From positions 15,030 through 79,029 of the forward strand of contig JZEL01000010.1 in the NCBI GenBank assembly GCA_001567365.1: DNA of 64,000 nucleotides, written 5' to 3'. Shown in pieces: positions 32,790-64,000 of this stretch. The translations under genes and the position numbers were made by a program. A model generated the notes under the pieces. That model was not told the origin of the DNA. It was given only the letters and a program-made list of their open reading frames with translations, and searched no databases. Source of the stretch: Parcubacteria bacterium OLB19. Its GTDB lineage: Bacteria; Patescibacteriota; Minisyncoccia; Phycocordibacterales; UBA918. Positions within the stretch are counted from its first letter, which is position 1. Each line of letters opens with the position of its first letter.

Positions 32790-32876
32790 CAAGTACTCTT
32801 GTATTGTAACTTGCGATAAAAATTTTAGTGACAAGTTATACACAAAAATATTTTATAAAAAATATTTTTTTTATCC
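32790..32876 (-). promoter_or_regulatory. AT-rich promoter region for 31436..32584, followed by an unusually long (~200 nt) GC-richer leader
   Basis: Minus strand reads TTGTCA-(19 nt)-TTACAAT, and TGTGTATAAC (extended -10-like) lies just upstream. The exact -35/-10 pairing is uncertain because the spacing is not optimal. Confidence 0.3.
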
Positions 32877-41130: not shown

Positions 41131-44100
41131 CTATATACCAACCGCAGTAAAGGTGTTGAGACCGGTGTGTGTAGAATTACTAGTGCCAAATGGTACCGCT
41201 ATACCCCAATAAACTTCGGTTTCAACTGGTGGTGCCACGGTTGTTGGCTTACTTAGATTTAAATCAATTGCCGTAGGTGTACTTGATGACAAGGTGTAAC
41301 AACTCACACAAGCACTATAAGTAAAGGTACTAGTAGCAAGTTTTTGCTGATCAGCTGGTATGTATGAAGTAGCACCATCACTTAAATCAGTCGCTTCAAC
41401 ATCGATGTCTATTGGTGAATTTCCAAGATTTGTCACTGTTGTAGTTGGATTATATGACCCTGTATCAGATTCAACGAGTAAAGAACCATAATTAATCAAA
41501 GAATCAACTTCAAGAGCACGGATAGTGAGGAGTTCGACTCCGGGTGCTGAGGCAAATTCATAACCATCAGTTTGATCTTCAGCCTCTAGATAAGCCAACC
41601 ATTCTTGTCCTTCATATGTATCAGCATCTGTTGCATCAGCATGGAAGTACACATCAGCCAAACAAGACAAGGTACAAGTATTACCTGAACAATCCGTAAA
41701 GCTACAGGCACCATTGGTGGTACTAAGGACATAACAATTATTATTATCTGGTGTACAACTTGGTCCTACTCCACTACGGTAAATAGTGGTGGTGGCATGT
41801 GCCAAATCTGAATAACCATTCATATCAGTCACAGTTCCTGTTGCATAAACCTCAGTTGTAGTACCTGGTGTTAAACTTATGTCTTGACCACCGTTTAACG
41901 ACACTGCCCCAAACACAGGTATAAACCTAGGAGACAACTCTGCTACCTCGGCATAGAAGTCAAGCTCAGTACCAGCATTTGTTACTCGGAAACAATAAGA
42001 ATCGTCGGCATTAATGGTGGTTTTAATTACATACTCAAGTTCTGTATAATAATTTTGTAAGACATCCGTGGCTGTAGTTTCGCTTGAAGGACTTTCAACC
42101 ATCTTACCAGTCACAAATTCACCACTCACATCAGTTAAATGATCTGATGTAGCATCATCATCAGCTATTTGCGAAGAAGTGGCCATACAAACTGGTGATG
42201 TACCACAAGATGCTTGATTCGGTACGGTAGCATAGTTGACAGCATCAACAGAACCACAACTTGGCGCAGAATCCTTAGCAGCATACTCTAAACGGAATTG
42301 TTGACTAGTAATATCAAGACCTGAGTTTTCAATAGAAACACGTAATCTAACATTTTCACCAACATCAGCTGATCCAGCTGTATCTTGGACAGCAACCCAT
42401 GTTGCACCTCCTGTAGTCTGTTCTGATCCCACATAAATTGTCGGAGCTGTATCTACTCTTGGTCTAGAGGTAAAACTATCCCAAGTTCCATTTTGGTACC
42501 AAAAAGCATAACCATAACCACCAGAAGTGTAATTAGTATCATTAGCTGAAACACTGGTTACCAGTGAACCACTACTGTTATATAAGTAAACATCAATATC
42601 GTCATTAGTTTGCCAATCAACGACCACCTCATACCAACCAGTCGAATAGGTAACGGTTGAAGTTGCTAGTACTGTTCCCGACGTATCATTATTTGCCACA
42701 TTCCTTGATAGTGAAATTCTGTCCGTACCAAACTGTTCCAAACAAACCGCATAGTTCTGATTATTAGTTCCTGGTGATTGTACTCCAAACAGTGTACAAG
42801 GTTCATCACTTGTGCCCGATGTGTTAACGTACTGCATATAACGGATAATTTCTCCTTGACTGATGGTTTGATCAAACCTAAAGATACCATCAGTGGTTTT
42901 ACCACTTGTGTTTGTAGGCTTGAGTGAATAGCTACCACCATATACTGGTGTACCAACTGTATTAAATAAAGTTGTATCACCACTATACTCAGCAATATCA
43001 TTGTCTTCAAAATCATCAAAAGCTGTAAACACTTGTTCACCATCACTAATAGATGAAGCAGTTGTACTACCATAATACATTTGCAGTACAGCTTGACCAT
43101 TAGCCGGAAGGCTTGGGATCAATACCCAGACATCGGCTTCAGTGCTAGCAGTGTACTTTTCAACCCAGAATGGAATTGCAGTAACACCATCATCATCAGT
43201 AAAACGAAGATCGGAGAAATCTGATTTCATATCACTATCGTATGTTATAGTAACCTTCACTGAAGTAGAGGCGTAAGTTTGATTGTCATTGTTTTCAACC
43301 CGTATACGCTTTCGCAAATCAAAACTAGTGTCAGCATACCATTCACTGGCCACACCACCTTCTCCACCATCATCATTACGCCAACGATAATGTGTTTGTT
43401 CGGTAATAAGACATGAACTATCATCAAATCTTACTGAACCACAGGCATCTAGACCATCAATATCAAAACCTTCACCGCCGATATTGCCGTAATTATTGGT
43501 GAAGCGCCACGCATTACTGGTTTCCCCTACCAAGGAAACGTTATAACCAGAGATACCTGTAGTAGCGTGGAAACCAACATTATCAAATATCATTGAAGGA
43601 TTAGCATTTAATGTAGTTGAAGACAGTGTAATTAAAGCTCCGGTATCAACCGCTAGATCAAAGTAACCGTCTGACAAATTAGTAATCGAGGAGATATTTG
43701 CTAGCTGTAAACCATTAATATCCAGATCATAGAAAGCATATTGGTTAGCATTTAATTCACCGCCAAGTACTTTAATGGTGTAATTACCATTATCTTGACC
43801 CTGAATATTTGTCACATTACCTGATCCCCCAAGAATTTGCAGAACCCCGCTATTAACAGTTGTGGTGGCTGAAGTTGCCATATAAACATTAACTTGTCTT
43901 TCACTACCAAACAAACTAGTGCCATCAAAATCAGTAGCATAATTCCAATATTCAGTGGTTGTACTGATAGAAAAATCACCGTACACATATAGATTTCCAT
44001 TTACATTGGCATGATCCTGAGAGTAAAGTGAACCAGAACTTGACACTGTGGTACTAGACGCACTGCTGTACCACATCCTTACGTCTGTATTATCACCTAC

Positions 44101-50100: not shown

Positions 50101-52374
50101 AATACTTAAAGTAGAAGTACCTCTAGCCAATGTTCCGTAACTAACAACCAATGAACCTTCTGTAGCAACAGATTTATTAGGAGTCCATGTCGCTCCACCA
50201 CTTGTTTCACCAAAAGTAAGGTTATAGAAATTAAGTGATGAAGTAGACGTTTGTAGAGTTAAGCTAGAAGTGGTAGCTGTAAATATAATAGTTGAGGCTC
50301 CAACTGTAAAAGTACCATCTTGTCTCCAATTACCAGAAACACGAAGCGTATTGGTTGCTGGTGTAAAAGTACCATAGTTTTCAAAGTTTATAACAACACC
50401 GTTTGTATTTGGCTGATATGTGGTGCCAGATAAAATTCTAAACTTAGCATCTGTACAAGCACTCTCAGCACACAAAGTCAAAACATTACTACCATCAACA
50501 CTAAAGAATAAATCTTCACCATTACCGTTATCGTAATAATTCAAATCTGAGTTTGTAAGAGTTGGTGCATCACCAGAACCTAAAGTTAGATTTCGCTTAG
50601 CTAATTGCATAGCAGAAATGTTTCCGTTTCCGTCATATTTAGTTATCGCCACAGACTCATCCGTATCTGAAGCTCCAGTGATAAACACGGTAATAATATC
50701 GTCCTCAAACATGGTTACATTTGGTATAGACCAACTTCCGTCACCACCAATAGATGCTGTTTTTCCGGTTTGAATAACACCATTTACAGCAATAGCTACT
50801 GTACCGCTATTGATAGTTGTACTGGCATCATATTCGTAAGCCGTACCAGACACAGTAATACCCTCAGACCAAGCTACTGACCAATCTTCAAGCGTTGGGC
50901 AATCACCAGCTACACAGTTAAATTGTGCATCTAAAGCCAAGGTGTTGTATACAGTTTTGTCGAGTTCTGATAGATCAATCGGACTGGTTGTAAAACCTGA
51001 ACTATTACCTGCCAAAGCACTGTCTGGCACTAAGGCATATTCAGAAGTAGAAGCTAGATAGTAGAGTCGATATTCAACATAGCTAGTTCCAGAAGTGGTA
51101 TCGTTCCAAGTCACAGCTTCCCAGCGTGGTCCAGAGCCATCATCGAAATCTATTGGTGTTGAACGAATTGAGCCTGAGATAAAATCTGGATATATGCGGG
51201 CCACCATATCTAAAGAACCATCAAATGGAGTTCCGGTTATCGATGGTGAAGAACTGATAGCTTGACGAGTCGACCAACTACTTCCATCCCAATTACTTAC
51301 ATCATAACGGTCGTTTACATCATCAAAGAAAGCAGTGTGTATTTTACCATCACCAGCTCTCACCGTAATAACTCGCCAAGAGTCTAAAATTGTGTCCAAT
51401 GTTAATTCACCGCCAAAAGTAGTAGTTGCAGCAGTTTGATAACGACCATTAGTACCATCAGAATACGTAGCTATAGTATAGCCATCGCGACCACTAGAAG
51501 TCTCGAATTCACAATCAACTGCATGACCAGCCTTACCATTACCAATTTGTTCTATTTCACTGTAAGCTGTCCAACTACTACCACCCCATTTTGCAACACC
51601 AATGTTTATATCATTATCAATGTAACAAAGTATAACCTCATCGGTTCCAACATCTCTTTTAAGGGTAGCCCATTCAATATGGTCACCAATCGCATAAGTC
51701 GAAGTTGACCAGGTAGCACCATTCCATGTTGCATACAGCAAAGTAGTAGCTAAGTTATTACTTAAAGCGACAATCGCTTGATTTCCAGATTCTTCATAAA
51801 CAGCTGCCGCTCCTGCATTAGCATCTTCATTCATATTACTTAGAGCCATAGCATTACCCCAAGCATTACCACTCCAAACCATGAGTTCATAATCTATAGC
51901 ACTGGTATTAGTATGCTTAAATACAGCCACAATTTCATCCGTGGTAGGATCGGATGCCAATTCCACATAAACACAATTGTTAGTATTGGCCAATGTGATT
52001 GATGATGTCGCAGACCATGAAGTACCATTCCAAATACTATAAACAGCATCATTCCCACTACAAGAAACAGCTAACAAATCACCCGAACTCATCTCGTAAG
52101 CTACATCAAAACCTCTTTGCAAAGTGTTTGGAATATTGTTATTTAATTCATTTACACTACCCCACGAGTCAGTTTCGGTGTTATAAATTTGCACGTTCAT
52201 ATCTGCATCAGTACCAACTGTAGCCAAGGCGTACTCAGGACGAGTAGGCGCAGCTTCTAGTTCCATCCAACGAATTTGAGCATCAACACTTTCAGCAGAG
52301 GCAGCTGTACTCCAACTAGTTCCATTCCATTTTCGATAGCGTGGTGCTTGATTTGTACCTTCACCATAAGCCAT
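41131..52374 (-). CDS. Giant Thr/Ser/Gly/Asn-rich surface protein (3747 aa) with no signal peptide of its own. It has an N-terminal propeller-like module, about three ~800-aa beta-helix-like super-repeats and a conserved C-terminal domain. Probably the downstream half of one ORF that is interrupted at 52374.
   Basis: It starts MAYGEGTNQAPRYRKWNGTSWS with no hydrophobic N-terminus. Repeated LTxxGxxTxxG beta-helix-like units are present. The blocks ...YSQDHAGVDGDLNIYG, ...YSQDHADVNGSLYIWG and ...YSQDHANVNGNLYVYG lie ~2.3-2.4 kb apart. The C-terminus is YWGIAVPFG...TGLNTFTAVGI. Confidence 0.7.
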   Translation of the reverse strand: MAYGEGTNQAPRYRKWNGTSWSTAASAESVDAQIRWMELEAAPTRPEYALATVGTDADMNVQIYNTETDSWGSVNELNNNIPNTLQRGFDVAYEMSSGDLLAVSCSGNDAVYSIWNGTSWSATSSITLANTNNCVYVELASDPTTDEIVAVFKHTNTSAIDYELMVWSGNAWGNAMALSNMNEDANAGAAAVYEESGNQAIVALSNNLATTLLYATWNGATWSTSTYAIGDHIEWATLKRDVGTDEVILCYIDNDINIGVAKWGGSSWTAYSEIEQIGNGKAGHAVDCEFETSSGRDGYTIATYSDGTNGRYQTAATTTFGGELTLDTILDSWRVITVRAGDGKIHTAFFDDVNDRYDVSNWDGSSWSTRQAISSSPSITGTPFDGSLDMVARIYPDFISGSIRSTPIDFDDGSGPRWEAVTWNDTTSGTSYVEYRLYYLASTSEYALVPDSALAGNSSGFTTSPIDLSELDKTVYNTLALDAQFNCVAGDCPTLEDWSVAWSEGITVSGTAYEYDASTTINSGTVAIAVNGVIQTGKTASIGGDGSWSIPNVTMFEDDIITVFITGASDTDESVAITKYDGNGNISAMQLAKRNLTLGSGDAPTLTNSDLNYYDNGNGEDLFFSVDGSNVLTLCAESACTDAKFRILSGTTYQPNTNGVVINFENYGTFTPATNTLRVSGNWRQDGTFTVGASTIIFTATTSSLTLQTSTSSLNFYNLTFGETSGGATWTPNKSVATEGSLVVSYGTLARGTSTLSIGGNLQLGSSGYTSGLATTTFNGSGSYTWSDAKATSSSSNVGYVVVDGTTKTITLGGNVAAQSVTIGADDTLNASGSGYNINVYGSWTNNNSFIPQTGTVTFVGTSSAAINRGSSAFNNLTFAGTGGTWSFTTATLALNGNLTIATGTVTLPTGTTTIAGSFLNTGGTFAHNNGEVRMTSTSAGRSVLQNGTAFLNAFYDLVFSGSGSWSYADTNATTSRTLRIQSGTVTLPSGQLTVAGDMNVTGSGAFSHNNGEVVLLIQNANEVRTNSSSFNNLRVYGESSTSTRTLSDTNVTVLGNLNLLGNGTTTFPSGILYIGGSLTNSANFNANNGTVRFNSTAGSETINAGNSPFVSLDFNSATGDFTITENATATGAVTLASVQQFTLGSGKTLSVSGSFTHTATGTNTTWTGSTLRLLNGGTITLNAKTHAGDSYGTLEAASSTLVKMWNSSADNYVTSGATGAIYSQDHAGVDGDLNIYGNYARTTGTEYWSVATDFDGVALTGANRQVDVKVASSSSISLTGASLSMIGTSTASSTISAISGTYTLTTTNSTLNNQYFTISGTDGYGLNLTSSTTLTTFSDGYLNVAPGLTGMTVDATTIDTNPSGQFYRIGFATTSSGTASNVTLSGTPSSYIWFRDGVGGIYGEAYDANDTDPGSVRFDDSSFIVTVSGTVYSDAGLTPMGAPVCDGSTANVRIVVDGGTYASSTSCNAGTGAYSFSNVAYIGDPRVVVYLDTNGGEKGSVVTKTLTGDVTDMDIYANRVILRHEDVDDLAIVDMSMYDHDDDTDISFTATLGSPNTLSTEANTELYVFASTTFTPNGNLTLGGNGNSNSYEGTLALATSSSFVAQGTESHTLSGRLVVGGNATFTTASSTFTFNATTTGKSITSVATTTFNNLVFSGTGGGWNIGANLTVHGDMQVASGTVTGTGNIVMTNGSISGNGVLSMGSGTVLLNKTNTLGGTSAWTFNNLVLGNGSIVGTTTPVSTATTSILGTLTISNAHFLDAGSSVWDLAGSGTVFTETGTLLEDTSTIRFSGAGANVPSTNYYNLILNAGAGSPTYTGTGSGILVLNDLTIGGSANSTFNVNTNDPTLEIRGDVLITSNGTLEASNSSNLTVLGDWTNGGIFTNNSGTVRFTGTGNTNINAGNSSFGTVLINGTGDFNVTNNATATTWRLQNHDDFTLSSGQTLAVGGQFENGLGGAKTTWTGSTLYLYGNSTYLINSSTTSDSYANLNVGAGTQIRMWSSDAAAYNVNSTGSLYSQDHADVNGSLYIWGQLLRTSGSDYWSYATDFDGTSLSGSERVANVYLASGASATWAGASLSVVGGSGATTTIQNQGSGTFGLTIGTSASTTWSRVQVRDVNSNGIVFSGTPTVNDFSYTDHLVAINSATAVTVGGTVIDANQAKNFTHNKFEAGGGVTGAINVTATGTSVSSWRFTNHIGNIAGEGFDSDPDGDPGYVVWDDSAALITIAGNVYSDEGSTVSGACDGATSNIRLVVAGLTMYDTTCNAGTGAYSISNIAFSPADTLTLYINGETEKAANVSVSPVSSIANMHLYENRVIVRHENTDPLTIDNMAVWDSSDDADIPFTAVSGSPDTLTLPANTKLLVWTGKTFEPNGNVTLSGGGAGGAQDGTLEVQSSGRFRAKTTETHSVGGSMIFGNSAELVSASSTFTLTTTGAGRTIDVNENSFHNLTLSGSGSWNITDTTLSVNGSYSQSSGSATLPTATTTIGGAFNVTGGSFTVNGSPIVFTSTGAGNTVRFNGSNVANLYFNGSGSFNMTDTNATATGQVMINSGTVTLPTGSLSIGSNFINTGGAITHNTSDLILTATSTATLHASSSDLYGVKFVGNGTFTISDVNLSLLESLTISTGTVIMATGTTSIGGSLLASSGVFTHSSGTVLLNSTTTGRTINVGNNAFYNLQIGAPAGGYTFESATTTNNFTIANVSSLTVQSGANITVGGVFTNSVGGANTTWTGSTLRLNYGSSFSVNGRTTTGDAYGTLIVGDNTDVRMWYSSASSTTVSSSGSLYSQDHANVNGNLYVYGDFSISTTTEYWNYATDFDGTSLFGSERQVNVYMATSATTTVNSGVLQILGGSGNVTNIQGQDNGNYTIKVLGGELNANQYAFYDLDINGLQLANISSITNLSDGYFDLAVDTGALITLSSTTLNANPSMIFDNVGFHATTGISGYNVSLVGETSNAWRFTNNYGNIGGEGFDIDGLDACGSVRFDDSSCLITEQTHYRWRNDDGGEGGVASEWYADTSFDLRKRIRVENNDNQTYASTSVKVTITYDSDMKSDFSDLRFTDDDGVTAIPFWVEKYTASTEADVWVLIPSLPANGQAVLQMYYGSTTASSISDGEQVFTAFDDFEDNDIAEYSGDTTLFNTVGTPVYGGSYSLKPTNTSGKTTDGIFRFDQTISQGEIIRYMQYVNTSGTSDEPCTLFGVQSPGTNNQNYAVCLEQFGTDRISLSRNVANNDTSGTVLATSTVTYSTGWYEVVVDWQTNDDIDVYLYNSSGSLVTSVSANDTNYTSGGYGYAFWYQNGTWDSFTSRPRVDTAPTIYVGSEQTTGGATWVAVQDTAGSADVGENVRLRVSIENSGLDITSQQFRLEYAAKDSAPSCGSVDAVNYATVPNQASCGTSPVCMATSSQIADDDATSDHLTDVSGEFVTGKMVESPSSETTATDVLQNYYTELEYVIKTTINADDSYCFRVTNAGTELDFYAEVAELSPRFIPVFGAVSLNGGQDISLTPGTTTEVYATGTVTDMNGYSDLAHATTTIYRSGVGPSCTPDNNNCYVLSTTNGACSFTDCSGNTCTLSCLADVYFHADATDADTYEGQEWLAYLEAEDQTDGYEFASAPGVELLTIRALEVDSLINYGSLLVESDTGSYNPTTTVTNLGNSPIDIDVEATDLSDGATSYIPADQQKLATSTFTYSACVSCYTLSSSTPTAIDLNLSKPTTVAPPVETEVYWGIAVPFGTSNSTHTGLNTFTAVGI
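43100..49200 (-). repeat. About three in-frame tandem super-repeats of ~2.3-2.4 kb each inside the 3747-aa CDS. Boundaries are approximate.
   Basis: Anchor motif YSQDHA is found at about 48700, 46310 and 44015 on the + coordinate scale. The flanking ~800-aa blocks align residue by residue (NNGTVRFNSTAGSETINAGNSPF... / NNSGTVRFTGTGNTNINAGNSSF... / SSGTVLLNSTTTGRTINVGNNAF...). Confidence 0.6.
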
Positions 52375-55300
52375 CAGACTTCGGTTATTGTGGTGGTAAT
52401 TTGTGCTCCACCGGCGGAAGTTTCGATATCTGTTAAGGTGTCAGTATCAAATTGTTCGCCAGTAGTTTGGTGCCATGTAGATACAGTAATTGCAGTATCG
52501 ACAGTAAAACTTCTTTGATCTGAGTATTTAGACCAAATATTGTCCCCACCAGGATCTCTAGCTCGCACTCGCCACCAGTAAGTATTTCCGTTAGTCAAAG
52601 CTGCTTGGGCTGTATAACTAACAGTGTTGCCAGAAATAAATGGTGAAATATCAGTACTAGAAGCAGTGTTTGCAAAACCAGCATTCGTACCAGATGTAAA
52701 TGTAGAAGATGACGTAAAATCATAGGTGCTAGATATTTGTAATTGGTACTGAATATCGTCACTTTCAGGGTCTGTAGTGTAAAAAGTAAAGGTTGGTGTC
52801 GTAGTAGCCACTTTAGCATTATCAAAATATTGAACTAAAGTTGGAACTTCAATCGTTTCATCCCAAGTTACAGTCCAATCCAGAAGTCTTGGTAAAGTGC
52901 TATTACCACTAAATACTGCCCTTATTCTAATTTCATTATAAGTCTCTGGATTAACTGTGCTTAGAGACACTGGCGATGATGTAAAACCGGTACTATTCCC
53001 AGACAAAGCACTATCTGGAATCAAAGAGTAATTTTCGCCTGACACACGATATTCAACATAATATCTAATACTACCGGAAGTTACATTATGAGTGAACAAT
53101 AAAGCCCCCCAAGCATTTCCAACCGTACCATCATCAAAATCAATCACAGATGAAGTAGTGGTACCGGCAGTAAAGCTTGAATCTATACCAACATCATTTG
53201 TACTAGTTGAATTGATTGTATCTAGAAGAGTATCAGTATTAAATTGATCACCTGTTGTTTGATACCAAGTAGAAATCAGAGTCCCAGTATCAATAGTAAA
53301 ACTCTCTGGTGTAGACCAATCTCCATACTCACCTGACCCTGATATATCTTGACCGCGTACTCGCCACCAATAAGTATTACCGTTAGTTAGACTAGTAGTT
53401 GGAGTATACTTAATTCTTTGTCCACTCGTAAACTCACTCTTCATATCGGGATCTAGAGTGTTTTCAAATAGAGTGAAGTTGGTCACCGAATCATTATCAA
53501 TCACAGTACTACCAAAATTAACATCAGTAGAAATTTGAATTTGGTAAGCAACATCATCACCTAATTCATCAATGGACGCGAACTCAAACCATGGCGTAGT
53601 TGAAGCTAGTTTTTCATTATCAAATGGAGCATAGAGATCCGGAGCTAAAGGTGGTGCATTCGTAATAAGTCTTGGGTAATTAGTATAAGTATTAAAAACA
53701 GAACCATCTGAATAAACCATTCGGAAACAGTAATTTGTACTACTGGTGGCATTATTATTTTGAATAGCAAAATCCCATTCAGTATCATCATCTACTGGCA
53801 AGGAATTTTGATTTTCTTCAGTTGGATTTATTTCCTCATAAGTTTCAAAAGTATCAGAATCAGTCAAAAGTGTTGACGTTAACGACAAACCATCACCTAT
53901 ATATTCCTCAGCCGAAACAGCGTAGAAACCGGTTGGATTTGATTGGTTATTAAACTCAGTAGCTATCCAACCGTTACTGCGACGCACATTAGAGAAGCGC
54001 AATTCATCAAGTCGACCGACAAATCCTTCAGTTGTTTCACCACCGAAGTTTTGCCAATCTGAAGTACCACTCTGAGCCACATCACTAAACAATCTTGTGG
54101 TTGTACCATTTATATGTATATCAACTTTATTACTACTATCACGCGTTAAAACTACATGATTCCATTGTGAGTGTGCTGGATAATCAACACTTGAATCAGA
54201 TGAAGAAATTACTCGAGCAAATAATTTTCCTGATGGTGAGCTCCAAGGTCCTAATTTTTCGTTAGCACCACTAGGTCCTGCAATAGCATATCCAGTAGAA
54301 GAAGAATACCACCACATCGATGCAGTAAATTCACCAGTATACGCCAGTGCAGTTTGGAACACACCACCGTCGTTACCATCAAGATCAATAGCATTACCAA
54401 TTTTTCCAACTATAACATCTCCAGACGTCATACCAGCACGAGCTACCGCATGATTAGCATTACTGGTACTGTCTCTAAATTGTGGACTAGATCCAGCTGG
54501 GTTATTACCCATTTGATAACGCAAAGAATAACCGTTCGTCCACACATTTCTCGAACCATAAGTAGCACTAACTGAATACCCTGACGCACTTGGATTGTCG
54601 TAATAAATATAATATTCCTTGTCTGTTGTTGATGATAAAGTAGCCTTAAAATGTAACTCTCCGGTTTCGCTACCAGTATTGATGAAAACTAATTCATAAG
54701 GTACCTCAGTCAAACCGTCATCTTGCGTGACACGAATATCATCGCCATCGCTTTGTACATTTTGGAAGAAAGTGGATGGTAAATCAGCTAAGTCAACATA
54801 AACTGGAAAATTAGTCACATCATCCTCCACCACATCGCTTTCTACTGTTATCTTAATGCGTTTACCCCATCCACTAGCAAGCCAATCACTACCGGCAATA
54901 GAATTTTCATGACCACGCCACACAGCTGTAGTAGATGCCGGATCACCAACATCATGCCATGTTAGCGATGGACTACAGTTTGAACCCTCTGCATATTGTA
55001 ATTTGAAGGCTTCGGAAAAAGCTGGCAATGTAACATTAGCTCCTTTAAGTGACATTCTCAGTCTAATCGCAGATCCTGAATTGATTGCATAAGATGAACT
55101 AATAGCCGTATTTTCAGCTATATCAATCACTCCAGATGGCCAAGGATCAGTTGGGGTTAGGAAACTTCCATTTACATACCAACGATAATTACTCTGTGTA
55201 ATTTTTGGTTCACGCATCCATGACAATGTCCAGTCATCCAAACTAGCAGATTGACTACCAACCGTAGTAATGGTTGCTTCAAGACAGATTTGATTGTAAG

Positions 55301-58300
55301 TACTGGTTGACAATCCGGTCAAATCAATCGGCGTGTCACTCACATCAAAACCAGTGCTGTTGCCAGACAACACACCATCAGGCACTAAAGTATCACAAGC
55401 TGTAGTACTTGAATATAAAACACTAACCTTTACATCTGTTCCTAAAGGTTCTGTAGTTGAAAAACTCACATCTCCCCAAGTTGGTTGATTTGGTACCCAA
55501 TCAAAATCAATTACTGGTGTTGTTACTACACCTTCAGAATACTGAAAACGTTTAGCCACCATGTCAAACATCTCATATGGCGCAGCTATAACTGAGGAAG
55601 GACTGGTTTCAATTGTATCTTTAGTTGACCAACTGGTACCATTCCAATACGCGGATTCAAGATCATCTGAAGTATCATCGAGAGTGACAGCCACCACTAC
55701 ACCATCATCTGCCCTTTCAGTCTGTACCCAGAATGAGTCTGATATTGTACTAACAGTAGCCTCAGTACTCCAACTGGTTGTAGTAGTACCGTGGCGATAT
55801 CTTGTGTCAGTAGTGTCACTATATATAACCATATGATAGTCAGTACGACCAACTACATCTTCGTAGGTACATTCAACTGGTCTACCAGTTGTGCCATTAG
55901 CAGTAGTTTCAACCTCTTGAAAAGTATTCCAAGCACCACCGTCCCATTCCAAAATTCCAATATCAGTACTTGCATCTACGTAGCATAGAAGTATTTTATC
56001 TGTATCTTTATCAGCCGTCATACGTCCAAACAGAAAATCATTACCTATAGCTTGTGTAGTATTTGGACTTAATTCTGTACCATCCCAAACAGTGTAAGCA
56101 ATACTATTAGCAGTACCATTACCTACCGCTATAACTGCCTGGTCACCAGAGCTTTCAAACATCACTGACATAGCCTCAACTCCAGCTGATGCTGGCGAAC
56201 CGATCACTCGACTATCCACCCAAGCTGTACCGTCCCAAACAAAGGTTTCATATTGAGTACCTGTGTCACGCACAATCAAAATAATTTCATCTGAAGCTGG
56301 GTTTGATGCAATCTCAAGCATATTACATGCGTTTGCCGAAGCAACGGTGATGCTAGTTGTTGCAGACCAACTAGTTCCATTCCAAATACTATAAACAGCA
56401 TCATTTCCATCACAAGATACAGCCATTGCATCTCCAGATAAACTTTCGTATGTTATTGCGATACCTCTATATGTGTTAGTAGTTAGTGCTGGCGATAAAA
56501 GCTTTTGATTACCCCAAGAACTACTAGAGGCACTAAAAATCTGTGCGTAAGCGTCATTACTTTGATCTAGAGTTATAAGTGCATATTCATCACGCGTAAC
56601 TCCTGAGGCTGTGCGCACCCAGTTTATGGTATTACTTACCGCAACAGCACTCCCTTCCACTCCCCAAGCTGAACCATTCCAAAGCCTGTATCTTGGTGAT
56701 GTGTTTGAACCCTCACCATAAACAATCAACATCTCTGTTGCCTCGGTTGCATCAACCTGCACCTTATCTGATGCATTCGATACTGTACCAACCAACGTAT
56801 CACCATCAAACTGATCACTGTATGTCTGATACCAGTTTGGTGCTTGAGCGGACATGTCGACAGTTAGACTTTGTGTTGTAGACCATTCTCCATACTCATT
56901 TGAACCACCAGTATCACGAGCCCGCACCCTCCAATAGTAAGTTTGTAAGTCTGTTAGAGCATCTGCTGATTGTAATTGATATCTAATTTTATTACCTTCA
57001 ACAAATGGTGACGTATCTGTACTTGAGGCTGTATTTGAAAATCCAGAGTGTGTACCTGAAACACGAGTAGTTGAGGCAGTAAAGCTAGAAGTGGTAGAAA
57101 TTGAGAATTGATATTGTATATCTGAAGTTCCATCCGGATCTGAGGCGGAAAAGTCAAAATACGGTGTAGTTGAAGCAAATCTAATATTATTGAAAGGCGC
57201 ATCATAAAGAGTTGGTGCCACAGGGCGCTCATTGAGTTGTGTTTTTTGCCACACCATCAGTAAAGCAGGCGTAGTATCATCCAATGTTCCAGCACCAGCC
57301 TCTTGTATTGAAGTAACGCTAATAATATCATTTGCACTTAGATTCTCTAACAGATACACTAACGAACCTGATGAATTAGTATGTCCGCTTTGGTTTCTTA
57401 TATAATGTGACTTTACTTGTGCTCCCGAAACCTCAGATCCGTTGACCAAGATTTTAACTGTAGTATTAGAACGATTAACAGTACCATTCAGCGCATCATT
57501 ATAAACAACAAAATAACTTCCTGCTTCATCTACCGTAATTTGATGACTATTGCTAGAGGTGGAATGTGTGAAAACTGAAGTATCATAAACTCTCTGCGTT
57601 GCCCACTGTACTGAACTCGCCGCTGCAGGATTCCAGTTCGTACCACTAACCAAACGCACGCCCTCAAGTACAATCATGTCACTTGTGGACAATTTCTCAA
57701 CAAAAATTGAACCTACAAAGCCGGTAGAAACAGTACTAGTACCAGCCGCCGCTTCACGTTCTGTCGTTATAGTCAAAACCTGATTAGTAGTAGTAGCCAC
57801 CACAATACCAGACCAATGTATTGAACTGTCACCATCATCTTCATTTGCAGTTGATTGAGTATAACCTTGAGCAAAAATACCACCGTTCACCTGAACCCCG
57901 TCTAACCTCACACGTCCAAGCACACTTTGTTGCGCTGTACCACCAGTTAAAGGAACATTAACTGTCACCATATAAGTACCAGCGTTAGCAATAATTATAT
58001 TTTCAGGATTTACTGAATCAGAATGAGTAAAACCAGAATCTTGACGAGTTTCAGTCCATTGCAAAGAATAAGCTGTGGTTTGATTTAAATTAGTAGAGTT
58101 TGTTGTTCTGGTGGTTGTAGCAGAAAAAACATCTCTGGTTGAAGCAATATATTCCATATACAAACCAGCTTTCCCTGTTACATTCACAACATCACCAGCA
58201 TCGATAGTGGTTAAACCTACAGTGTAAACTTCCACATAATCATTTGGTGAAATATCCTTAAGTAGAAAGGTTGTATGAGTAGAGGATTCACTATGACTAC

Positions 58301-61025
58301 CAAAATTGCGAATATAACCACTACGGCCAAGACCATCAGGAACCGCAGTGCCATTTACTCTCACCTCAACACCTATACGAGTACGACTACTATTACCGTC
58401 AGTTCTCTGTTGTGGTACAGTTACAGCCAAGAGATAATCACCACTTTGTTTTAATGTGACCTTATGTGTATCTGTTGTAGTTGAATGAGTGAAATAGTAG
58501 GAATCAACAGTTGAAGTACTCCACTGGAGAGGACTTGGTGAAGCATTAAGATTTGTACCACCTACAGTTCTAGTACCAGTAAACCAACCAATTCCTGTTA
58601 ATGCGTCGGAAGCTATTTGCCATTGCCTTAACTCTCTAAAACCATCCATATTAAGTGGACCCAAAAGATACATATACGGACTAATATCTGGTGCGTCAAA
58701 CTTATATCTAAATTGTACTGACTTACCTTCTTCAAGATTAACATTTCGCCAAACAAGCTCGGTATAATCTGGTAAAGTGATAATTTCGGCACCACCAGTA
58801 TCCTCTATCACAAATCCTCTTGGTAATCTCTCTACCACATCACCATCATAGATGCGGTTTGCTTTTACGTTAATTGTAACTTCATATGGCGAAGGGGGAT
58901 AGATACGTGTTGGGGCGGTTCTCTCAATATCGTAAGGAATATACTCTCGCACCTCAAAAGTGTCACGGATATTATGAACCACACTTCCATCAGCATTTAA
59001 ATGCTGTAGCTGTATTGTATAAAGGCCAATCTTATCTGTTTTATCAAAATCAGCTAAATAATCTGGTACATCAGTGACGTTATTCTTACCACAATGTCCA
59101 GACTGACTTACTGGTGTCTCATATATATTATTTTCCGGATCAACAATTTTTAGCTGTAAATTAGCATCACAAATAGTGTCTCCCTTGTCCGTCAAAGCTG
59201 CCAAATTAAGTTTTACTTTTTCGTTTGGTAGATACATTGTCTTGGTAGTATTTACTGCTAAGACACCCCAATAGAATTCAAAACTATCAGTGTATAGTGT
59301 TTCATTTTCATTCACCACCACCTCGATTTTGTATTTACCTGGTAATAGTTTTTGTGGTTGCTCTAAGAACTTTATTGTCCAGGTTTTATCATCCTGATAA
59401 ATAAAATCAACTGGTACAGTTATGGCGACTCCATTTTGATCAATCACACTAACAGCATCAATTTTATATACATTCTCACTGAAGATTGAGTTGAAGATAC
59501 GTTTAAAGAAGTTTTGTTGCGGTGAATAATTTAAAGTAAATGTTGGTAGTGAGCTTAACGTAAAATCTAATTCCGTATCATTGAGTTCGTGGAATTTTGG
59601 CTCTAACAAACTTCTCTCGTAAGTAATTTGATTAGTCAAATCATTTGGATCTGGTTTTTCATAGAATGAGGATGATTCTACCTCTAACCACAAACTTTCA
59701 ACATAAGCACGTTCTAGATTATCAATATTACCTTGATATGAAACTCTTACCTGCAACTTAGCAATATCACCCTGATTAGCTGGATCTTCCAAAGAAACAA
59801 GGAAATAACCTCCATTAATACTGTTGGATACTTCGTCCTCTATATCAATAACAGTGGCTGTTTGCCAACCCTTACCATCGCCATAATCATATTCCACGAC
59901 AAACCGTTGTAACTCTGACTCATTAAGATTCTTAGTTTGACCAGCCAATGAAAGACGAAGCTGCGCTGAGGTAATAAATTTACCTGATTCAAATTCTGGC
60001 ATCATAAAACCAGAGAAGACCATATCGTAGGTTTTACAATTTGGCGAAGCATTACATTCTTCTTTTACAGTTGGTGGTGGTACATAGTTATCATTTTCCG
60101 TATCTGTAGTCACCTCCTCAGTAGCATCCTCAGTCTCTGCCACAGTTTCAACAATGTCACTTTCGGTATTATCAACTTGCAAATCTTGATTCTCTTCACT
60201 AGCCACATCACTAACATCAACTGTTTCTGTTTCTGATTGATTCACATCACTCGAAGATTCAACTTCAATTGCTTCATCCGTAGTAGAGACATCATTTTGA
60301 TCAACATTAGATTCAACAGAATTTTCCTCCTCTACAACATCATTGCTTTCTGTATTACTTTCAGTTGTGGTCACATAAGTAGTAATTGATTCTTGCAACA
60401 ATGGATAAGTTTTTTGAGATTGTGTAAACACACCCCAATTCACGTCATTTTTAAAATTAAAAGATGTTTCATTTTGAGGAGCAACTTCAGTGTTATCCGC
60501 TTCTGGCTCACTACTACTATCTGTAGCTTCAACCTCTTCAACTGTTGGGTCAGAATTTTCACTTTCCACTTCAACCTCCTCTACAGGTGACTGTGGAGAT
60601 AAATCTGTAGGAGTAGACTCTGAGTTTACAGACTCATCAACCGTTTCCGTTGAAGTGGTGTCGTTCAATCCATCCACAGGAGACATATCACCTTCAGTTT
60701 CGATTACTGATGAGGTATCAGTAACACTATCAATCACAGGCAACGGGGCTGGTGCAACAACAACAGAATCAATAAAGGCAGAGTTCTCTGGTGAAAAATT
60801 CTGGAAAAGTGATTCTGAAGAAATATCCTGACCTAGAGTCTTTTCTGGTTGTGACCAAGTATTCGAAGTTACAGAATCAGGAATAATTACTAGTTGTTCG
60901 GAAACAATTTCAGTTCTATCTACCGTAGCATACACAAAAATACCCACAAGCAACACAAAAATTGCCAGCATCCATAAAGAAATTCTACGGAAAAAAGCCT
61001 TAAAAATCATTACATAACAACCCAC
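52374..61025 (-). CDS. Giant membrane-anchored surface protein (2883 aa): N-terminal TM, an acidic stalk, Ig-like domains, three ~115-aa FTHS repeats, three FN3-like YYWRVRARD modules, a propeller-like module and a LamG/ConA-like domain. Probably the upstream half of one ORF continuing into 41131..52374.
   Basis: N-terminal TM is ISLWMLAIFVLLVGIFVYA. A D/E/S/T/V-rich region of ~300 aa follows. FN3-like modules end in YYWRVRARDTGGSNEYGEWST / YWWRVRGQDISGSGEYGDWST / YWWRVRARDPGGDNIWSKYS. LamG-like stretch: NAIDLDGNDGGVFQ...FTASMWWY...GRLDELRFSNVRRSNGW. The stop TGA overlaps the next ATG (ATGA at 52372..52376). Confidence 0.7.
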   Translation of the reverse strand: MGCYVMIFKAFFRRISLWMLAIFVLLVGIFVYATVDRTEIVSEQLVIIPDSVTSNTWSQPEKTLGQDISSESLFQNFSPENSAFIDSVVVAPAPLPVIDSVTDTSSVIETEGDMSPVDGLNDTTSTETVDESVNSESTPTDLSPQSPVEEVEVESENSDPTVEEVEATDSSSEPEADNTEVAPQNETSFNFKNDVNWGVFTQSQKTYPLLQESITTYVTTTESNTESNDVVEEENSVESNVDQNDVSTTDEAIEVESSSDVNQSETETVDVSDVASEENQDLQVDNTESDIVETVAETEDATEEVTTDTENDNYVPPPTVKEECNASPNCKTYDMVFSGFMMPEFESGKFITSAQLRLSLAGQTKNLNESELQRFVVEYDYGDGKGWQTATVIDIEDEVSNSINGGYFLVSLEDPANQGDIAKLQVRVSYQGNIDNLERAYVESLWLEVESSSFYEKPDPNDLTNQITYERSLLEPKFHELNDTELDFTLSSLPTFTLNYSPQQNFFKRIFNSIFSENVYKIDAVSVIDQNGVAITVPVDFIYQDDKTWTIKFLEQPQKLLPGKYKIEVVVNENETLYTDSFEFYWGVLAVNTTKTMYLPNEKVKLNLAALTDKGDTICDANLQLKIVDPENNIYETPVSQSGHCGKNNVTDVPDYLADFDKTDKIGLYTIQLQHLNADGSVVHNIRDTFEVREYIPYDIERTAPTRIYPPSPYEVTINVKANRIYDGDVVERLPRGFVIEDTGGAEIITLPDYTELVWRNVNLEEGKSVQFRYKFDAPDISPYMYLLGPLNMDGFRELRQWQIASDALTGIGWFTGTRTVGGTNLNASPSPLQWSTSTVDSYYFTHSTTTDTHKVTLKQSGDYLLAVTVPQQRTDGNSSRTRIGVEVRVNGTAVPDGLGRSGYIRNFGSHSESSTHTTFLLKDISPNDYVEVYTVGLTTIDAGDVVNVTGKAGLYMEYIASTRDVFSATTTRTTNSTNLNQTTAYSLQWTETRQDSGFTHSDSVNPENIIIANAGTYMVTVNVPLTGGTAQQSVLGRVRLDGVQVNGGIFAQGYTQSTANEDDGDSSIHWSGIVVATTTNQVLTITTEREAAAGTSTVSTGFVGSIFVEKLSTSDMIVLEGVRLVSGTNWNPAAASSVQWATQRVYDTSVFTHSTSSNSHQITVDEAGSYFVVYNDALNGTVNRSNTTVKILVNGSEVSGAQVKSHYIRNQSGHTNSSGSLVYLLENLSANDIISVTSIQEAGAGTLDDTTPALLMVWQKTQLNERPVAPTLYDAPFNNIRFASTTPYFDFSASDPDGTSDIQYQFSISTTSSFTASTTRVSGTHSGFSNTASSTDTSPFVEGNKIRYQLQSADALTDLQTYYWRVRARDTGGSNEYGEWSTTQSLTVDMSAQAPNWYQTYSDQFDGDTLVGTVSNASDKVQVDATEATEMLIVYGEGSNTSPRYRLWNGSAWGVEGSAVAVSNTINWVRTASGVTRDEYALITLDQSNDAYAQIFSASSSSWGNQKLLSPALTTNTYRGIAITYESLSGDAMAVSCDGNDAVYSIWNGTSWSATTSITVASANACNMLEIASNPASDEIILIVRDTGTQYETFVWDGTAWVDSRVIGSPASAGVEAMSVMFESSGDQAVIAVGNGTANSIAYTVWDGTELSPNTTQAIGNDFLFGRMTADKDTDKILLCYVDASTDIGILEWDGGAWNTFQEVETTANGTTGRPVECTYEDVVGRTDYHMVIYSDTTDTRYRHGTTTTSWSTEATVSTISDSFWVQTERADDGVVVAVTLDDTSDDLESAYWNGTSWSTKDTIETSPSSVIAAPYEMFDMVAKRFQYSEGVVTTPVIDFDWVPNQPTWGDVSFSTTEPLGTDVKVSVLYSSTTACDTLVPDGVLSGNSTGFDVSDTPIDLTGLSTSTYNQICLEATITTVGSQSASLDDWTLSWMREPKITQSNYRWYVNGSFLTPTDPWPSGVIDIAENTAISSSYAINSGSAIRLRMSLKGANVTLPAFSEAFKLQYAEGSNCSPSLTWHDVGDPASTTAVWRGHENSIAGSDWLASGWGKRIKITVESDVVEDDVTNFPVYVDLADLPSTFFQNVQSDGDDIRVTQDDGLTEVPYELVFINTGSETGELHFKATLSSTTDKEYYIYYDNPSASGYSVSATYGSRNVWTNGYSLRYQMGNNPAGSSPQFRDSTSNANHAVARAGMTSGDVIVGKIGNAIDLDGNDGGVFQTALAYTGEFTASMWWYSSSTGYAIAGPSGANEKLGPWSSPSGKLFARVISSSDSSVDYPAHSQWNHVVLTRDSSNKVDIHINGTTTRLFSDVAQSGTSDWQNFGGETTEGFVGRLDELRFSNVRRSNGWIATEFNNQSNPTGFYAVSAEEYIGDGLSLTSTLLTDSDTFETYEEINPTEENQNSLPVDDDTEWDFAIQNNNATSSTNYCFRMVYSDGSVFNTYTNYPRLITNAPPLAPDLYAPFDNEKLASTTPWFEFASIDELGDDVAYQIQISTDVNFGSTVIDNDSVTNFTLFENTLDPDMKSEFTSGQRIKYTPTTSLTNGNTYWWRVRGQDISGSGEYGDWSTPESFTIDTGTLISTWYQTTGDQFNTDTLLDTINSTSTNDVGIDSSFTAGTTTSSVIDFDDGTVGNAWGALLFTHNVTSGSIRYYVEYRVSGENYSLIPDSALSGNSTGFTSSPVSLSTVNPETYNEIRIRAVFSGNSTLPRLLDWTVTWDETIEVPTLVQYFDNAKVATTTPTFTFYTTDPESDDIQYQLQISSTYDFTSSSTFTSGTNAGFANTASSTDISPFISGNTVSYTAQAALTNGNTYWWRVRARDPGGDNIWSKYSDQRSFTVDTAITVSTWHQTTGEQFDTDTLTDIETSAGGAQITTTITEV

Positions 61026-61062: not shown

Positions 61063-61097
61063 AACCCGCTATCTTACGATAGGCGGGTTATTTTTCC
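61063..61097 (-). terminator. Intergenic hairpin with adjacent T-tract; candidate (bidirectional) terminator between 61111..62649 and the giant gene
   Basis: AACCCGCTATC-ttac-GATAGGCGGGTT followed by ATTTTTCC on the + strand. On the minus strand the stem is followed by AUAAUAUUCUU. Confidence 0.35.
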
Positions 61098-62649: not shown

Positions 62650-62672
62650 AAGGAACTGTAGAAAAATTAATC

Positions 62673-63137: not shown

Positions 63138-63188
63138 ACTATTAATATTATATATATTGTATTTATGATTTTAGTGACATACCCACAG

Positions 63189-64000
63189 CTAGCCAGTCCA
63201 GTTAAAGAGCAAGATTGAGAAGTCAGTTAGGTTAACCTTCGTGTCGACATTAATATCAGCAGATGGATCTGATGTTCCTCCATCAGTGTTCCACCAAAAA
63301 AGTAGAATTGAGAAGTCCGTTAGATTAACCTTCCCATCACGATTCAAATCTGCTGTTCGTGGCTTCACTGCCTTTTGTCCAACTCCGTATAAAAGATAAT
63401 TTGAGAAGTTGGTAAAAATAGTTCCTGACGTTTGTTTAGATTTAGCTCTGATTTTGTAAGTTCCAACCGAAAATCCATTAGTAGCGATTGTAGTACTCCA
63501 AAAACCGTCTGAGTTAGCACTAGCTGTGAAAGCTTTAAGAGTAACCGGGGAGTTTTCTTTCATATTTTCTAAGTTTACTTCAGAATTAGGTAAAGCATAA
63601 CCACTAACTGACAATTCTTGTCCAGGATCTACCGGATCGGGGGTTACAACTATTGTTGGCGCAATATTAATATTCGTCAAAGTCGAGGTTCTTGCCCCTG
63701 CCACAGTAAAGGAAGTACTGAATGTGGATGATTTTATTTTTTTTGAGTCAATTGCATAGACACCAAAAGTATATGCACCTCTAGCAATTTCATCAATAGT
63801 AATTGAGTATAATCCGTTTCTGTCAGCTCTTCCCTTCACACTTTCCTTACCATCAACTAATGAAACAATTTCACTATTAGGGTATGCGTAGCCACTAATA
63901 ACAACACGTCCATCGCCACTACGATAGGGAGCATCATCAGATTCAAATCCTCCACCCGCTGTACTACCACTATCTTCTCCATCTCCTCCTCCTCCTCCTC
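63189..64000 (-). CDS. Dockerin-bearing secreted protein (paralog of 32877..33998). The N-terminus lies beyond the window: the frame is open to the edge through a poly-Gly linker.
   Basis: C-terminus DLNRDGKVNLTDFSILLFWW...DINVDTKVNLTDFSILLFNWTG is a double dockerin. The upstream frame continues ...GGGGGDGEDSGSTAGGGFESDDAPYRSGDGRVVISGYAYPNSEIV... with no stop up to position 64000. The listed M at 63839 is actually a GTG codon. Confidence 0.55.
   Translation of the reverse strand, partial: GGGGGDGEDSGSTAGGGFESDDAPYRSGDGRVVISGYAYPNSEIVSLVDGKESVKGRADRNGLYSITIDEIARGAYTFGVYAIDSKKIKSSTFSTSFTVAGARTSTLTNINIAPTIVVTPDPVDPGQELSVSGYALPNSEVNLENMKENSPVTLKAFTASANSDGFWSTTIATNGFSVGTYKIRAKSKQTSGTIFTNFSNYLLYGVGQKAVKPRTADLNRDGKVNLTDFSILLFWWNTDGGTSDPSADINVDTKVNLTDFSILLFNWTG

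What the first reader, a model, noticed from the sequence alone, without database searches (positions are those of the whole stretch)
41131..61025. The 2883-aa and 3747-aa ORFs abut at an ATGA junction and look like one interrupted ~6630-aa ORF
The downstream 3747-aa ORF has no signal peptide or TM although it is plainly extracellular-type. Its first residues MAYGEGTNQAPRYRKWNGTSWS align with an internal propeller-like module of the upstream ORF (LIVYGEGSNTSPRYRLWNGSAWG). The last residues of the upstream ORF (WHQTTGEQFDTDTLTDIETS...ITEV) align with the segment that precedes that internal module (WYQTYSDQFDGDTLVGTVSN...). Domain order therefore continues straight across the junction at 52372..52376 (gtc TGA overlapping ATG). 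Restoring one base (e.g. GTCTTGATG) would fuse the frames into a single ~6630-aa protein with one N-terminal TM anchor.
Basis: partly seen in the sequence, partly recalled or inferred. Interest (0 to 1): 0.75.

Follow-up and report, generated by a model that had tools for sequence, protein, structure and literature searches.

The report
Giant surface-protein gene split by one-base deletion
The two huge adjacent reading frames are one roughly 6,630-codon surface-protein gene of a Parcubacteria-type bacterium, broken by one missing base that is most likely a sequence-assembly error, so the split is ordinary rather than new biology.

Summary
On the minus strand the 2883-codon ORF (61025..52374) ends in TGA, which overlaps by one base the ATG of the 3747-codon ORF (52374..41131).

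**One gene.**
- A roughly 700-aa module runs straight across the junction. It is 40% identical to an internal copy (E 2e-143) and gap-free at the junction if one residue is added.
- 37 of 39 related loci read through this point in one frame.
- Seven relatives carry complete single ORFs of 6130-6490 codons in conserved synteny.
- The closest relative has GAA GTG TTG ATG GCC where the window has GAA GTC -TG ATG GCT.

**Probable cause: a consensus indel error in this record.**
- Three other window genes are verified as frameshifted: ABC ATPase, glutamate dehydrogenase and FKBP. Three more look frameshifted on sequence continuity alone.
- Independent short-read contigs of the same species (96-99.8% identical) carry an intact 440-aa ABC ATPase. 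They also have a perfect hairpin where the window lacks one base.
- None of those contigs reaches the junction, so a real strain-specific mutation is not excluded (about 0.2).

**Rejected.** Programmed frameshifting and a natural two-gene arrangement both fail their tests.

Interest is low.

The parts
52374..61025 (-). 5' portion (2883 codons + TGA) of the single giant gene. The likely true start is ATG at 61010, six codons inside the GTG-started ORF.
   Evidence: The N-terminus matches the closest orthologue L023 (GGCYVMQIKVFF...).
60915..60989 (-). The only hydrophobic segment of the whole protein (approx. residues 13-37, RRISLWMLAIFVLLVGIFVYA). Inferred to be a signal-anchor or signal peptide.
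   Evidence: Hydropathy scan. The anchor function is inferred, not shown.
55179..57260 (-). Intact internal copy of the module (upstream residues ~1256-1949): FN3-like domain, short beta segment, seven-bladed propeller and beta-sandwich.
   Evidence: BLASTP. AlphaFold model with mean pLDDT 78. Best PDB matches are Photorhabdus PLL/PHL propeller lectins.
50830..52886 (-). Second copy of the same module. The frame break cuts it at the first strand of its propeller.
   Evidence: The junction-equivalent residues MLIVY form strand E53-57 of the model, where pLDDT is about 88.
52372..52379 (-). Break point: GTC TGA TG. One base is missing from the codon between Val and Met; relatives have TTG or ATG there.
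41131..52374 (-). 3' portion (3747 codons + TAG) of the same gene. It contains the propeller, long Gly/Thr/Ser/Asn-rich repeats, DUF2341 and C-terminal domains.
42994..43221 (-). DUF2341 domain (downstream residues 3052-3127).
   Evidence: Pfam PF10102, E 1.5e-21, 77 bits against a cut-off of 23.4.
61063..61089 (-). Terminator-like hairpin between the cohesin-domain gene and the giant gene. The window lacks one G of the 3' arm.
   Evidence: Same-species contigs L042 and L043 have the perfect stem AACCCGCCTATC-GTAA-GATAGGCGGGTT.

Best explanation
The two ORFs are the halves of one gene of about 6,630 codons. It encodes a giant cell-surface protein of a Parcubacteria/Paceibacterota bacterium with a hydrophobic N-terminal anchor.

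The protein has an acidic spacer, Ig/FN3-like domains, two lectin-like seven-bladed propeller modules, DUF2341/LamG-type modules and very long Gly/Thr/Ser-rich repeats. Its role is inferred to be attachment to surface glycans of a partner cell.

In this record one base is missing from the codon between Val2883 and the next Met (ancestral GTN-[T/A]TG-ATG; here GTC-TG-ATG). The loss creates TGA and moves the rest of the gene into the -1 frame. That this is one gene broken by a one-base deletion is shown.

The most likely cause is a consensus or assembly indel error in this sequence record, which carries about one indel per 8-9 kb. That step is inferred. The confidence given is for the whole statement, including the artefact origin; 'one gene, not two' on its own is about 0.97.
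For: **One gene**
- A module alignment crosses the junction (E 1.9e-143) and is gap-free at the junction with one added residue.
- 37 of 39 related loci are in one frame there.
- Complete orthologous ORFs of 6130-6490 codons exist, colinear with the repaired protein.
- The neighbourhood dockerin protein, HSP20, cohesin protein, giant gene, fn3 protein, ABC ATPase is conserved.
- The closest relative has GTG TTG ATG at the site.
- The only hydrophobic segment lies at the far N-terminus.
- The break falls at the first strand of a confidently modelled propeller.

**Artefact origin**
- Other genes in the same 64 kb are frameshifted:
  - ABC ATPase at ~39058.
  - Glutamate dehydrogenase at an A6 run, 15065-15080. 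Relative P0020 reads QGLKIAVQGFGNAG in one frame.
  - FKBP at an A8 run, 11461-11475.
- Three more are probable on sequence continuity, at T7/A7/A8 runs.
- Four independent short-read contigs of the same species (96.9-99.0% identical) all have an intact 440-aa ABC ATPase. They read GTT TCG GTA where the window has GTT -CG GTA.
- Two such contigs have a perfect hairpin where the window lacks a G. That makes two window-specific one-base deletions in 16.1 kb of independently covered sequence.
- All three one-base deletions are of the same type, one base lost from a short run: TTT to TT and GG to G (both confirmed) and TT to T (the junction, inferred from L023).
- No interrupted gene shows any further damage. 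The downstream 3747 codons are stop-free.
Against: - No reads were available, and no independent same-species contig reaches position 52374.
- The window's own giant proteins are not in the protein collection.
- The junction is not in a long homopolymer, unlike five of the seven frame breaks.
- The deletion happens to produce a stop-start overlap (UGAUG) that would permit reinitiation.
- Orthologues in four other assemblies also have frame breaks, at other positions. This gene may therefore tend to be truly disrupted, or merely hard to assemble.
Confidence: 0.75

Rival explanations
1. The one-base deletion is a real, recent mutation in this strain. The gene is then a fresh pseudogene, or yields a truncated 2883-aa anchored protein, and the 3747-aa remainder is either untranslated or stranded in the cytoplasm without an export signal.
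For: - The sequence as given has the deletion.
- Giant surface-protein genes are large mutational targets.
- Four orthologues in other assemblies also show frame breaks at other sites.
- No reads were available to exclude it.
Against: - It would require at least three, and probably six, further real frameshifts in the same 64 kb, including in ABC ATPase, GDH and FKBP genes.
- Those genes carry no nonsense mutations or second lesions.
- The ABC break is absent from 4 of 4 independent same-species assemblies.
- 11.2 kb of downstream frame remains stop-free.
Confidence: 0.2
2. The split is real and tolerated. The downstream half is made by termination-reinitiation at UGAUG, and the two polypeptides function together.
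For: - The stop and start overlap by one base.
- A natural gene pair in the window uses the same kind of overlap: TAATG at 27833.
Against: - The downstream product has no signal peptide or transmembrane segment.
- The cut lies at the first strand of a propeller, inside a module, not between modules.
- No relative has the split.
- A tight stop-start junction is not remarkable. 16% of all possible one-base deletions in this gene give ORF pairs overlapping by 1-4 nt, and 20% fall within -4..+10 nt.
Confidence: 0.03
3. Programmed -1 ribosomal frameshifting, or UGA recoding, joins the two frames during translation.
For: A -1 slip after GUC would read CUG AUG GCU. That gives V-L-M-A, the same length as in relatives.
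Against: - There is no X XXY YYZ slippery heptamer at C GAA GUC UGA.
- The 126 nt from the site fold no better than shuffles, z = -0.17.
- The shift site is not conserved. Relatives are in one frame, and other broken orthologues break elsewhere.
- Homology continues in a different frame, not after UGA in the same frame.
- TGA ends 9 of the 35 tabulated window ORFs: six ordinary genes, the giant 5' ORF, and two that are frameshift products (FKBP, 30770..31315).
Confidence: 0.01

Closest known systems
Genes fragmented by single-base indel errors in error-prone (homopolymer-sensitive, long-read) assemblies
   Same: - One-base indels split otherwise intact genes into abutting or overlapping ORFs in different frames.
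- Five of the seven frame breaks in the window sit in A/T runs of 6-8.
- Same-species short-read contigs lack the two window indels they cover: the ABC ATPase frame break and a deletion in an intergenic hairpin.
- PMC9262707 and PMC12007338 describe this class of error.
   Different: The sequencing platform of this record is unknown. The junction deletion and the two confirmed deletions are in very short runs (TT, TTT, GG), not long homopolymers.
Large beta-rich repeat proteins of Parcubacteria (OD1) interpreted as adhesins (Nelson and Stegen 2015, PMC4508563)
   Same: - The lineage is the same: the related loci are titled Parcubacteria, Paceibacterota or Kaiserbacteria.
- The protein is very large, rich in beta structure and internally repeated.
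[quoted passage not shown]
   Different: This family is four times larger (about 6400 aa). It is positionally conserved next to cohesin- and dockerin-domain genes. No experiment links it to adhesion.
Photorhabdus PLL/PHL seven-bladed propeller fucose lectins (PDB 8q81, 6t96, 6rgr, 5c9l)
   Same: They are the best structural matches of the propeller module. Foldseek E is 6e-11 to 2e-10, and the TM-score is 0.66 normalised to the lectin. The module also has Trp-rich repeated blades (WNGTSW motif).
   Different: Sequence identity is only 12-16%. Sugar-binding residues were not examined. Here the propeller is one module inside a 6,600-aa anchored protein, not a free soluble lectin. This is a fold resemblance, not family membership.
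Programmed frameshift genes (dnaX -1, prfB +1)
   Same: Two frames must be joined to make the full-length product.
   Different: There is no slippery site, no stimulatory structure and no conservation of the shift in relatives.
Giant surface-protein genes in other bacteria (Apilactobacillus kunkeei Giant1-5, PMC12863079; Omnitrophota giant genes, bioRxiv 10.1101/2023.11.21.568195)
   Same: Multi-thousand-residue extracellular proteins. [quoted passage not shown]
   Different: No sequence relationship was tested. The domain content is different.

Membership tests
Frameshift-interrupted single gene | Homology to one protein continues across the break in a different reading frame. | tested here: met
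   A paralogous module (E 1.9e-143) and 37 of 39 related loci align through the junction. The window needs a shift of one base.
Frameshift-interrupted single gene | Orthologues in conserved synteny are uninterrupted and have the summed length. | tested here: met
   Single ORFs of 6130-6490 codons against 6631 for the repaired window gene. HSP20 and the cohesin gene lie upstream, and fn3 and the ABC ATPase downstream.
Frameshift-interrupted single gene | The indel can be located to specific bases. | tested here: met
   GAA GTG TTG ATG GCC in L023 and GAA GTA ATG ATG GCT in L028, against GAA GTC -TG ATG GCT in the window.
Assembly/consensus indel artefact | Independent data from the same organism lack the indel. 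| tested here: inconclusive
   Met for two other indels of this record: the ABC ATPase in 4 of 4 contigs and the hairpin in 2 of 2 contigs. No independent contig covers 52374.
Assembly/consensus indel artefact | Read pile-up contradicts the consensus at the site. | not testable with these tools
   No reads are available.
Assembly/consensus indel artefact | Excess of frame-breaking indels across the record, concentrated in homopolymers, without other gene decay. | tested here: met
   Four verified and three probable frame breaks in 64 kb, five of them in A/T runs of 6-8. No in-frame stops or second lesions were seen.
Programmed -1 ribosomal frameshift | Slippery heptamer X XXY YYZ at the shift site. 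| tested here: not met
   The site is C GAA GUC UGA UGG.
Programmed -1 ribosomal frameshift | Stimulatory downstream RNA structure. | tested here: not met
   MFE -28.5 kcal/mol against a shuffle mean of -27.9; z = -0.17.
Programmed -1 ribosomal frameshift | Shifted arrangement conserved in relatives. | tested here: not met
   Relatives are in one frame at this position. Other broken orthologues break elsewhere.
Natural two-gene operon with overlapping stop/start | Orthologues also have two genes, and the second has its own export signal. | tested here: not met
   (single ORFs). (no hydrophobic segment in the downstream ORF).
UGA-sense genetic code (tables 4/25) | Homology continues in the same frame after UGA, and UGA is not used as a stop elsewhere. 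| tested here: not met
   The same-frame read-through gives unrelated sequence and a stop after 38 codons. TGA ends 9 of the 35 tabulated window ORFs, six of them ordinary genes.
DUF2341 (PF10102)-containing surface proteins | Pfam model above the gathering score. | tested here: met
   77 bits against 23.4, residues 3052-3127 of the downstream part.
PLL/PHL-type propeller lectins | Seven-bladed propeller fold. | tested here: met
   The model has mean pLDDT 78, with 10-residue block means of 77-94 from about residue 51 to 320, lower beyond. The top 21 PDB matches are PLL/PHL lectins, TM 0.61-0.67 normalised to the target.
PLL/PHL-type propeller lectins | Conserved sugar-binding residues and demonstrated sugar binding. 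| not tested
   Only 12-16% identity. Binding sites were not compared, so this is not filed as a member.

The most novel reading that the evidence does not exclude
The deletion and the other frame breaks are real in this population. The organism then lives with a giant adhesin expressed as a 2883-aa anchored fragment plus a reinitiated 3747-aa fragment. Several housekeeping genes carrying poly(A) frame errors would be rescued by transcriptional slippage, as proposed for AT-rich endosymbionts (from my own knowledge, not checked here).
Probability: 0.04. Interest if true: 0.5.

Novelty: new member of a known kind. Interest (0 to 1): 0.13.

Why it matters
Mostly as a quality flag. This record should be annotated with one ~6,630-codon gene, not two. 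Its other split genes (ABC ATPase, glutamate dehydrogenase, FKBP and probably three more) should be treated as consensus errors until reads say otherwise. Gene counts, pseudogene calls and largest-protein statistics drawn from it would otherwise be wrong.

The gene itself belongs to a positionally conserved family of ~6,400-aa surface proteins in Parcubacteria/Paceibacterota. The family lies next to cohesin- and dockerin-domain genes and is a reasonable candidate for host attachment. Orthologues are already in public assemblies, so this copy adds little.

Tried and rejected
- **Exact look-ups of window proteins.**
  - The downstream giant protein, the cohesin protein, TGT, the AI-2E transporter and the 102-, 185-, 198-, 224- and 363-aa neighbours were not on record.
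  - Only HSP20 and FtsX were found. Their contigs stop 5.6 kb and 7.1 kb short of the junction.
- **Collection scans.** Scans of genome contigs and metagenome contigs found no contig of the same species. The best were about 70% aa identity.
- **Stop-start overlap as evidence of selection for coupling.** Rejected. 16% of random one-base deletions in this gene give 1-4 nt overlaps.
- **Shine-Dalgarno test for an independent start.** Uninformative. Essentially no gene in the window has an SD motif.
- **ORF 63189..63839 as another frameshift** (Pfam domain truncated at its N-terminus). Rejected. It is the 3' part of a 637-aa gene that runs off the window end.
- **Overlapping pairs 18079..19101/16425..18185 and 4585..6963/3279..4601, and the 1-nt overlap at 27833, as frameshifts.** Rejected. 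The downstream ORFs have plausible later starts with signal or transmembrane sequences.
- **Conserved split GDH in the lineage.** Many ~200-aa N-domain-only hits appeared. Rejected. They end at different positions, and close relatives such as P0020 read through.
- **First 42 residues of the structure model** (the W-QT--QF segment). Their pLDDT is below 50. My idea that the propeller is inserted into a beta-sandwich, so that the break splits that sandwich, remains an inference from sequence comparison with the propeller-less copy at upstream residues ~2590-2723. It was not shown.

Full report
**1. The observation**

Both ORFs lie on the minus strand: 52374..61025 (2883 codons) and 41131..52374 (3747 codons). 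The minus-strand sequence at the junction is ACC GAA GTC TGA TG GCT TAT GGT. The TGA (52376..52374) shares its last base with the ATG (52374..52372). The overlap is therefore 1 nt (TGATG), not the 4-nt ATGA of the title.

- A junction-spanning piece matches upstream residues 1250-1949 at 39.7% identity over 705 columns, E 1.9e-143.
- The alignment has no gap at the junction once one residue is inserted there: TEVxMAYGEG against TEMLIVYGEG.
- The downstream frame is open for only 22 codons before the ATG and has no other start codon there.
- Inserting one T gives a stop-free frame of 6631 codons.
- The only hydrophobic segment of the combined protein is at upstream residues ~7-41. The downstream ORF has none.

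**2. One gene or two: relatives**

A protein search with a fused 1101-aa query found Parcubacteria homologues that cover the junction without interruption. P0001 is 50% identical with 100% coverage, and P0002, P0003 and P0005 also cover it.

Scans of one-genome-per-species contigs and of JGI metagenomes gave 39 related loci. Of these, 37 read through the junction-equivalent position in one frame. The two exceptions are a propeller-less paralogue and an archaeal propeller-only hit.

Stop-to-stop ORFs that lie completely inside the fetched DNA are as follows.

| Locus | Codons |
|---|---|
| L003 | 6375 |
| L004 | 6368 |
| L005 | 6394 |
| L011 | 6431 |
| L012 | 6490 |
| L019 | 6375 |
| L020 | 6130 |

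L002, L009 and L023 exceed 6730, 6386 and 5712 codons before running off the locus.

The repaired window protein is colinear with these orthologues.
- Residues 2376-6628 align with 2088-6372 of L003 in one HSP (46% over 4327 columns).
- Residues 12-3426 align with 18-3397 of L002 (51%).
- Residues 2335-3922 align with L023 (69%).

All three HSPs span position 2884.

Synteny is conserved: dockerin-domain protein, HSP20, cohesin-domain protein, giant gene, fn3 protein, ABC ATPase.

At the DNA level the closest relatives read GAA GTG TTG ATG GCC (L023) and GAA GTA ATG ATG GCT (L028). The window reads GAA GTC -TG ATG GCT. The window therefore lacks one base of a Leu/Met codon, and the loss itself creates the TGA.

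**3. Real break or artefact**

I could not see reads, so I asked whether the record as a whole is indel-prone.

Three other genes in the window are broken by one-base frame changes, verified through domain models or relatives.
- An ABC ATPase is cut just after its LSGGQQQRV signature, at ~39058.
- A glutamate dehydrogenase is cut between its two Pfam domains at an A6 run, 15065-15080. Relative P0020 reads QGLKIAVQGFGNAG in one frame.
- An FKBP isomerase is cut at an A8 run, 11461-11475.

Three more ORF pairs show seamless sequence continuity across a frame change. They sit at a T7 run (26234-26248), an A7 run (34283-34297) and an A8 run (30785-30801). These three rest on sequence continuity only.

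Exact look-ups of the window's HSP20 and FtsX proteins recovered nine independent short-read contigs of the same species (Logan and ENA MEGAHIT), 95.6-99.8% identical in DNA.
- All four contigs that cover the ABC ATPase encode one 440-aa protein. They read GTT TCG GTA where the window reads GTT -CG GTA.
- Both contigs that cover the hairpin upstream of the giant gene have a perfect 12-bp stem. The window lacks one G of it.

That is two window-specific one-base deletions in 16.1 kb of independently covered sequence. The rate matches about seven frame breaks in 64 kb. The type matches too: one base lost from a short run, as inferred at the junction (TTG to TG).

None of the interrupted genes shows a second lesion, and the 11.2-kb downstream frame is stop-free.

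The simplest reading is a consensus error. It is not proven for this site, because no independent contig reaches 52374.

**4. Alternatives tested**

*Programmed -1 frameshifting.* A -1 slip would give V-L-M-A, the right length. But there is no slippery heptamer. The downstream RNA folds no better than shuffles, z = -0.17. The arrangement is not conserved. Frame breaks in other assemblies' orthologues (L017 twice, L021, L018, L001) are at other positions.

*UGA as a sense codon.* Same-frame read-through gives unrelated sequence. TGA ends 9 of the 35 tabulated window ORFs, six of them ordinary genes.

*Selection for a coupled two-gene state.* The stop-start overlap is not remarkable. 16% of all distinct one-base deletions in the repaired gene produce ORF pairs overlapping by 1-4 nt. 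The genome has no Shine-Dalgarno motifs, so that test is uninformative.

*Position of the break in the fold.* The break falls at the first strand of a propeller. The equivalent residues MLIVY form strand E53-57, with pLDDT about 88, in the model of the intact copy. That is not a natural domain boundary.

**5. What the gene encodes** (inference apart from the cited results)

The protein has the following parts.
- A hydrophobic N-terminal anchor.
- An acidic Ser/Thr/Asp/Glu-rich spacer.
- MG2/Ig-like and FN3-like domains.
- Two copies of a module containing a seven-bladed propeller. Its best solved-structure matches are the Photorhabdus PLL/PHL fucose lectins: Foldseek E about 1e-10, TM 0.66, 12-16% identity.
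- DUF2341.
- About 2,500 residues of Gly/Thr/Ser/Asn-rich repeats.

Large beta-rich repeat proteins of Parcubacteria have been read as adhesins before (PMC4508563). Binding to glycans on a partner cell is the most likely role. Nothing here tests it.

**6. Verdict**

The two ORFs are one gene with one base missing. I put the cause at about 0.75 for an error in this record and about 0.2 for a real strain-specific mutation. Anything involving recoding or a functional split is below 0.05.

This is an ordinary finding with value for annotation quality, and its interest is low.

Noticed in passing
window 38202-39523 (break at ~39058): The ABC-transporter ATPase is split into 156-aa and 280-aa ORFs by a missing T (GTT TCG GTA becomes GTT CGG TAG), just after the LSGGQQQRV signature. 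Four independent same-species contigs (L045-L048) encode one 440-aa protein.
   Followed up: yes
window 14444-15710 (A6 run at 15065-15080): Glutamate dehydrogenase is split between its dimerisation domain and its NAD-binding domain by a frame change at an A6 run. The GxGxxG motif IAIQGFGNAG is in the other frame. Relative P0020 reads through in one frame.
   Followed up: yes
window 11268-11853 (A8 run at 11461-11475): An FKBP-type peptidyl-prolyl isomerase is split at an A8 run. Pfam FKBP_C stops at profile position 31 of 94, and the rest (RGEPFVFKVGQGMVIEGW...) continues in the next frame.
   Followed up: partly
window 26234-26248 (T7), 30785-30801 (A8), 34283-34297 (A7): Three more ORF pairs read seamlessly across a frame change at a homopolymer: ...EDALFF|SARDQDGDLEIF..., ...IKLEKK|NAGATIVDD..., ...NKGKIKK|IAPYATEEV.... 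They are probably further one-base indels. No homologues were checked.
   Followed up: partly
window 61063-61089: A terminator-like hairpin lies between the cohesin-domain gene and the giant gene. Same-species contigs L042 and L043 have a perfect 12-bp stem, and the window lacks one G of the 3' arm.
   Followed up: yes
window 61111-63839, 28553-30277, 32877-33998; loci L002-L023: Cohesin-domain and dockerin-domain proteins are encoded next to the giant gene and elsewhere in the window. The block dockerin protein, HSP20, cohesin protein, giant gene is conserved in about 18 related genomes. This hints at a cohesin-dockerin surface assembly in these bacteria.
   Followed up: partly
whole window: Every credible gene in the 64 kb is on the minus strand. 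Plus-strand ORFs of at least 100 aa lie wholly or, for 32764..33249, partly inside minus-strand genes.
   Followed up: no
whole window, 25 nt upstream of 35 starts: There is essentially no Shine-Dalgarno motif upstream of any gene. The leaders are simply A/T-rich.
   Followed up: no
L017 (4510/4534 and ~6255), L021 (~10152), L018 (~9853), L001 (~3900): Orthologues of the giant gene in four other public assemblies also change frame in mid-gene, each at a different place. P0001 and P0002 end in out-of-frame Arg-rich tails.
   Followed up: partly
L024-L027: The PRYRxWNG propeller module also occurs at 28-32% identity in large proteins of archaeal MAGs (Bathyarchaeota, Nanobdellati/DPANN, Woesearchaeota, Methanosarcinales).
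   Followed up: no
window 19112-24685: A second large ORF (1857 aa) has no Pfam match. It overlaps the preceding 198-aa ORF by 4 nt.
   Followed up: no
whole window: No A or T run is longer than 8, although there are 81, 25 and 9 runs of length 6, 7 and 8. The abrupt cut-off might reflect homopolymer compression by the sequencing method. No statistic was computed.
   Followed up: no
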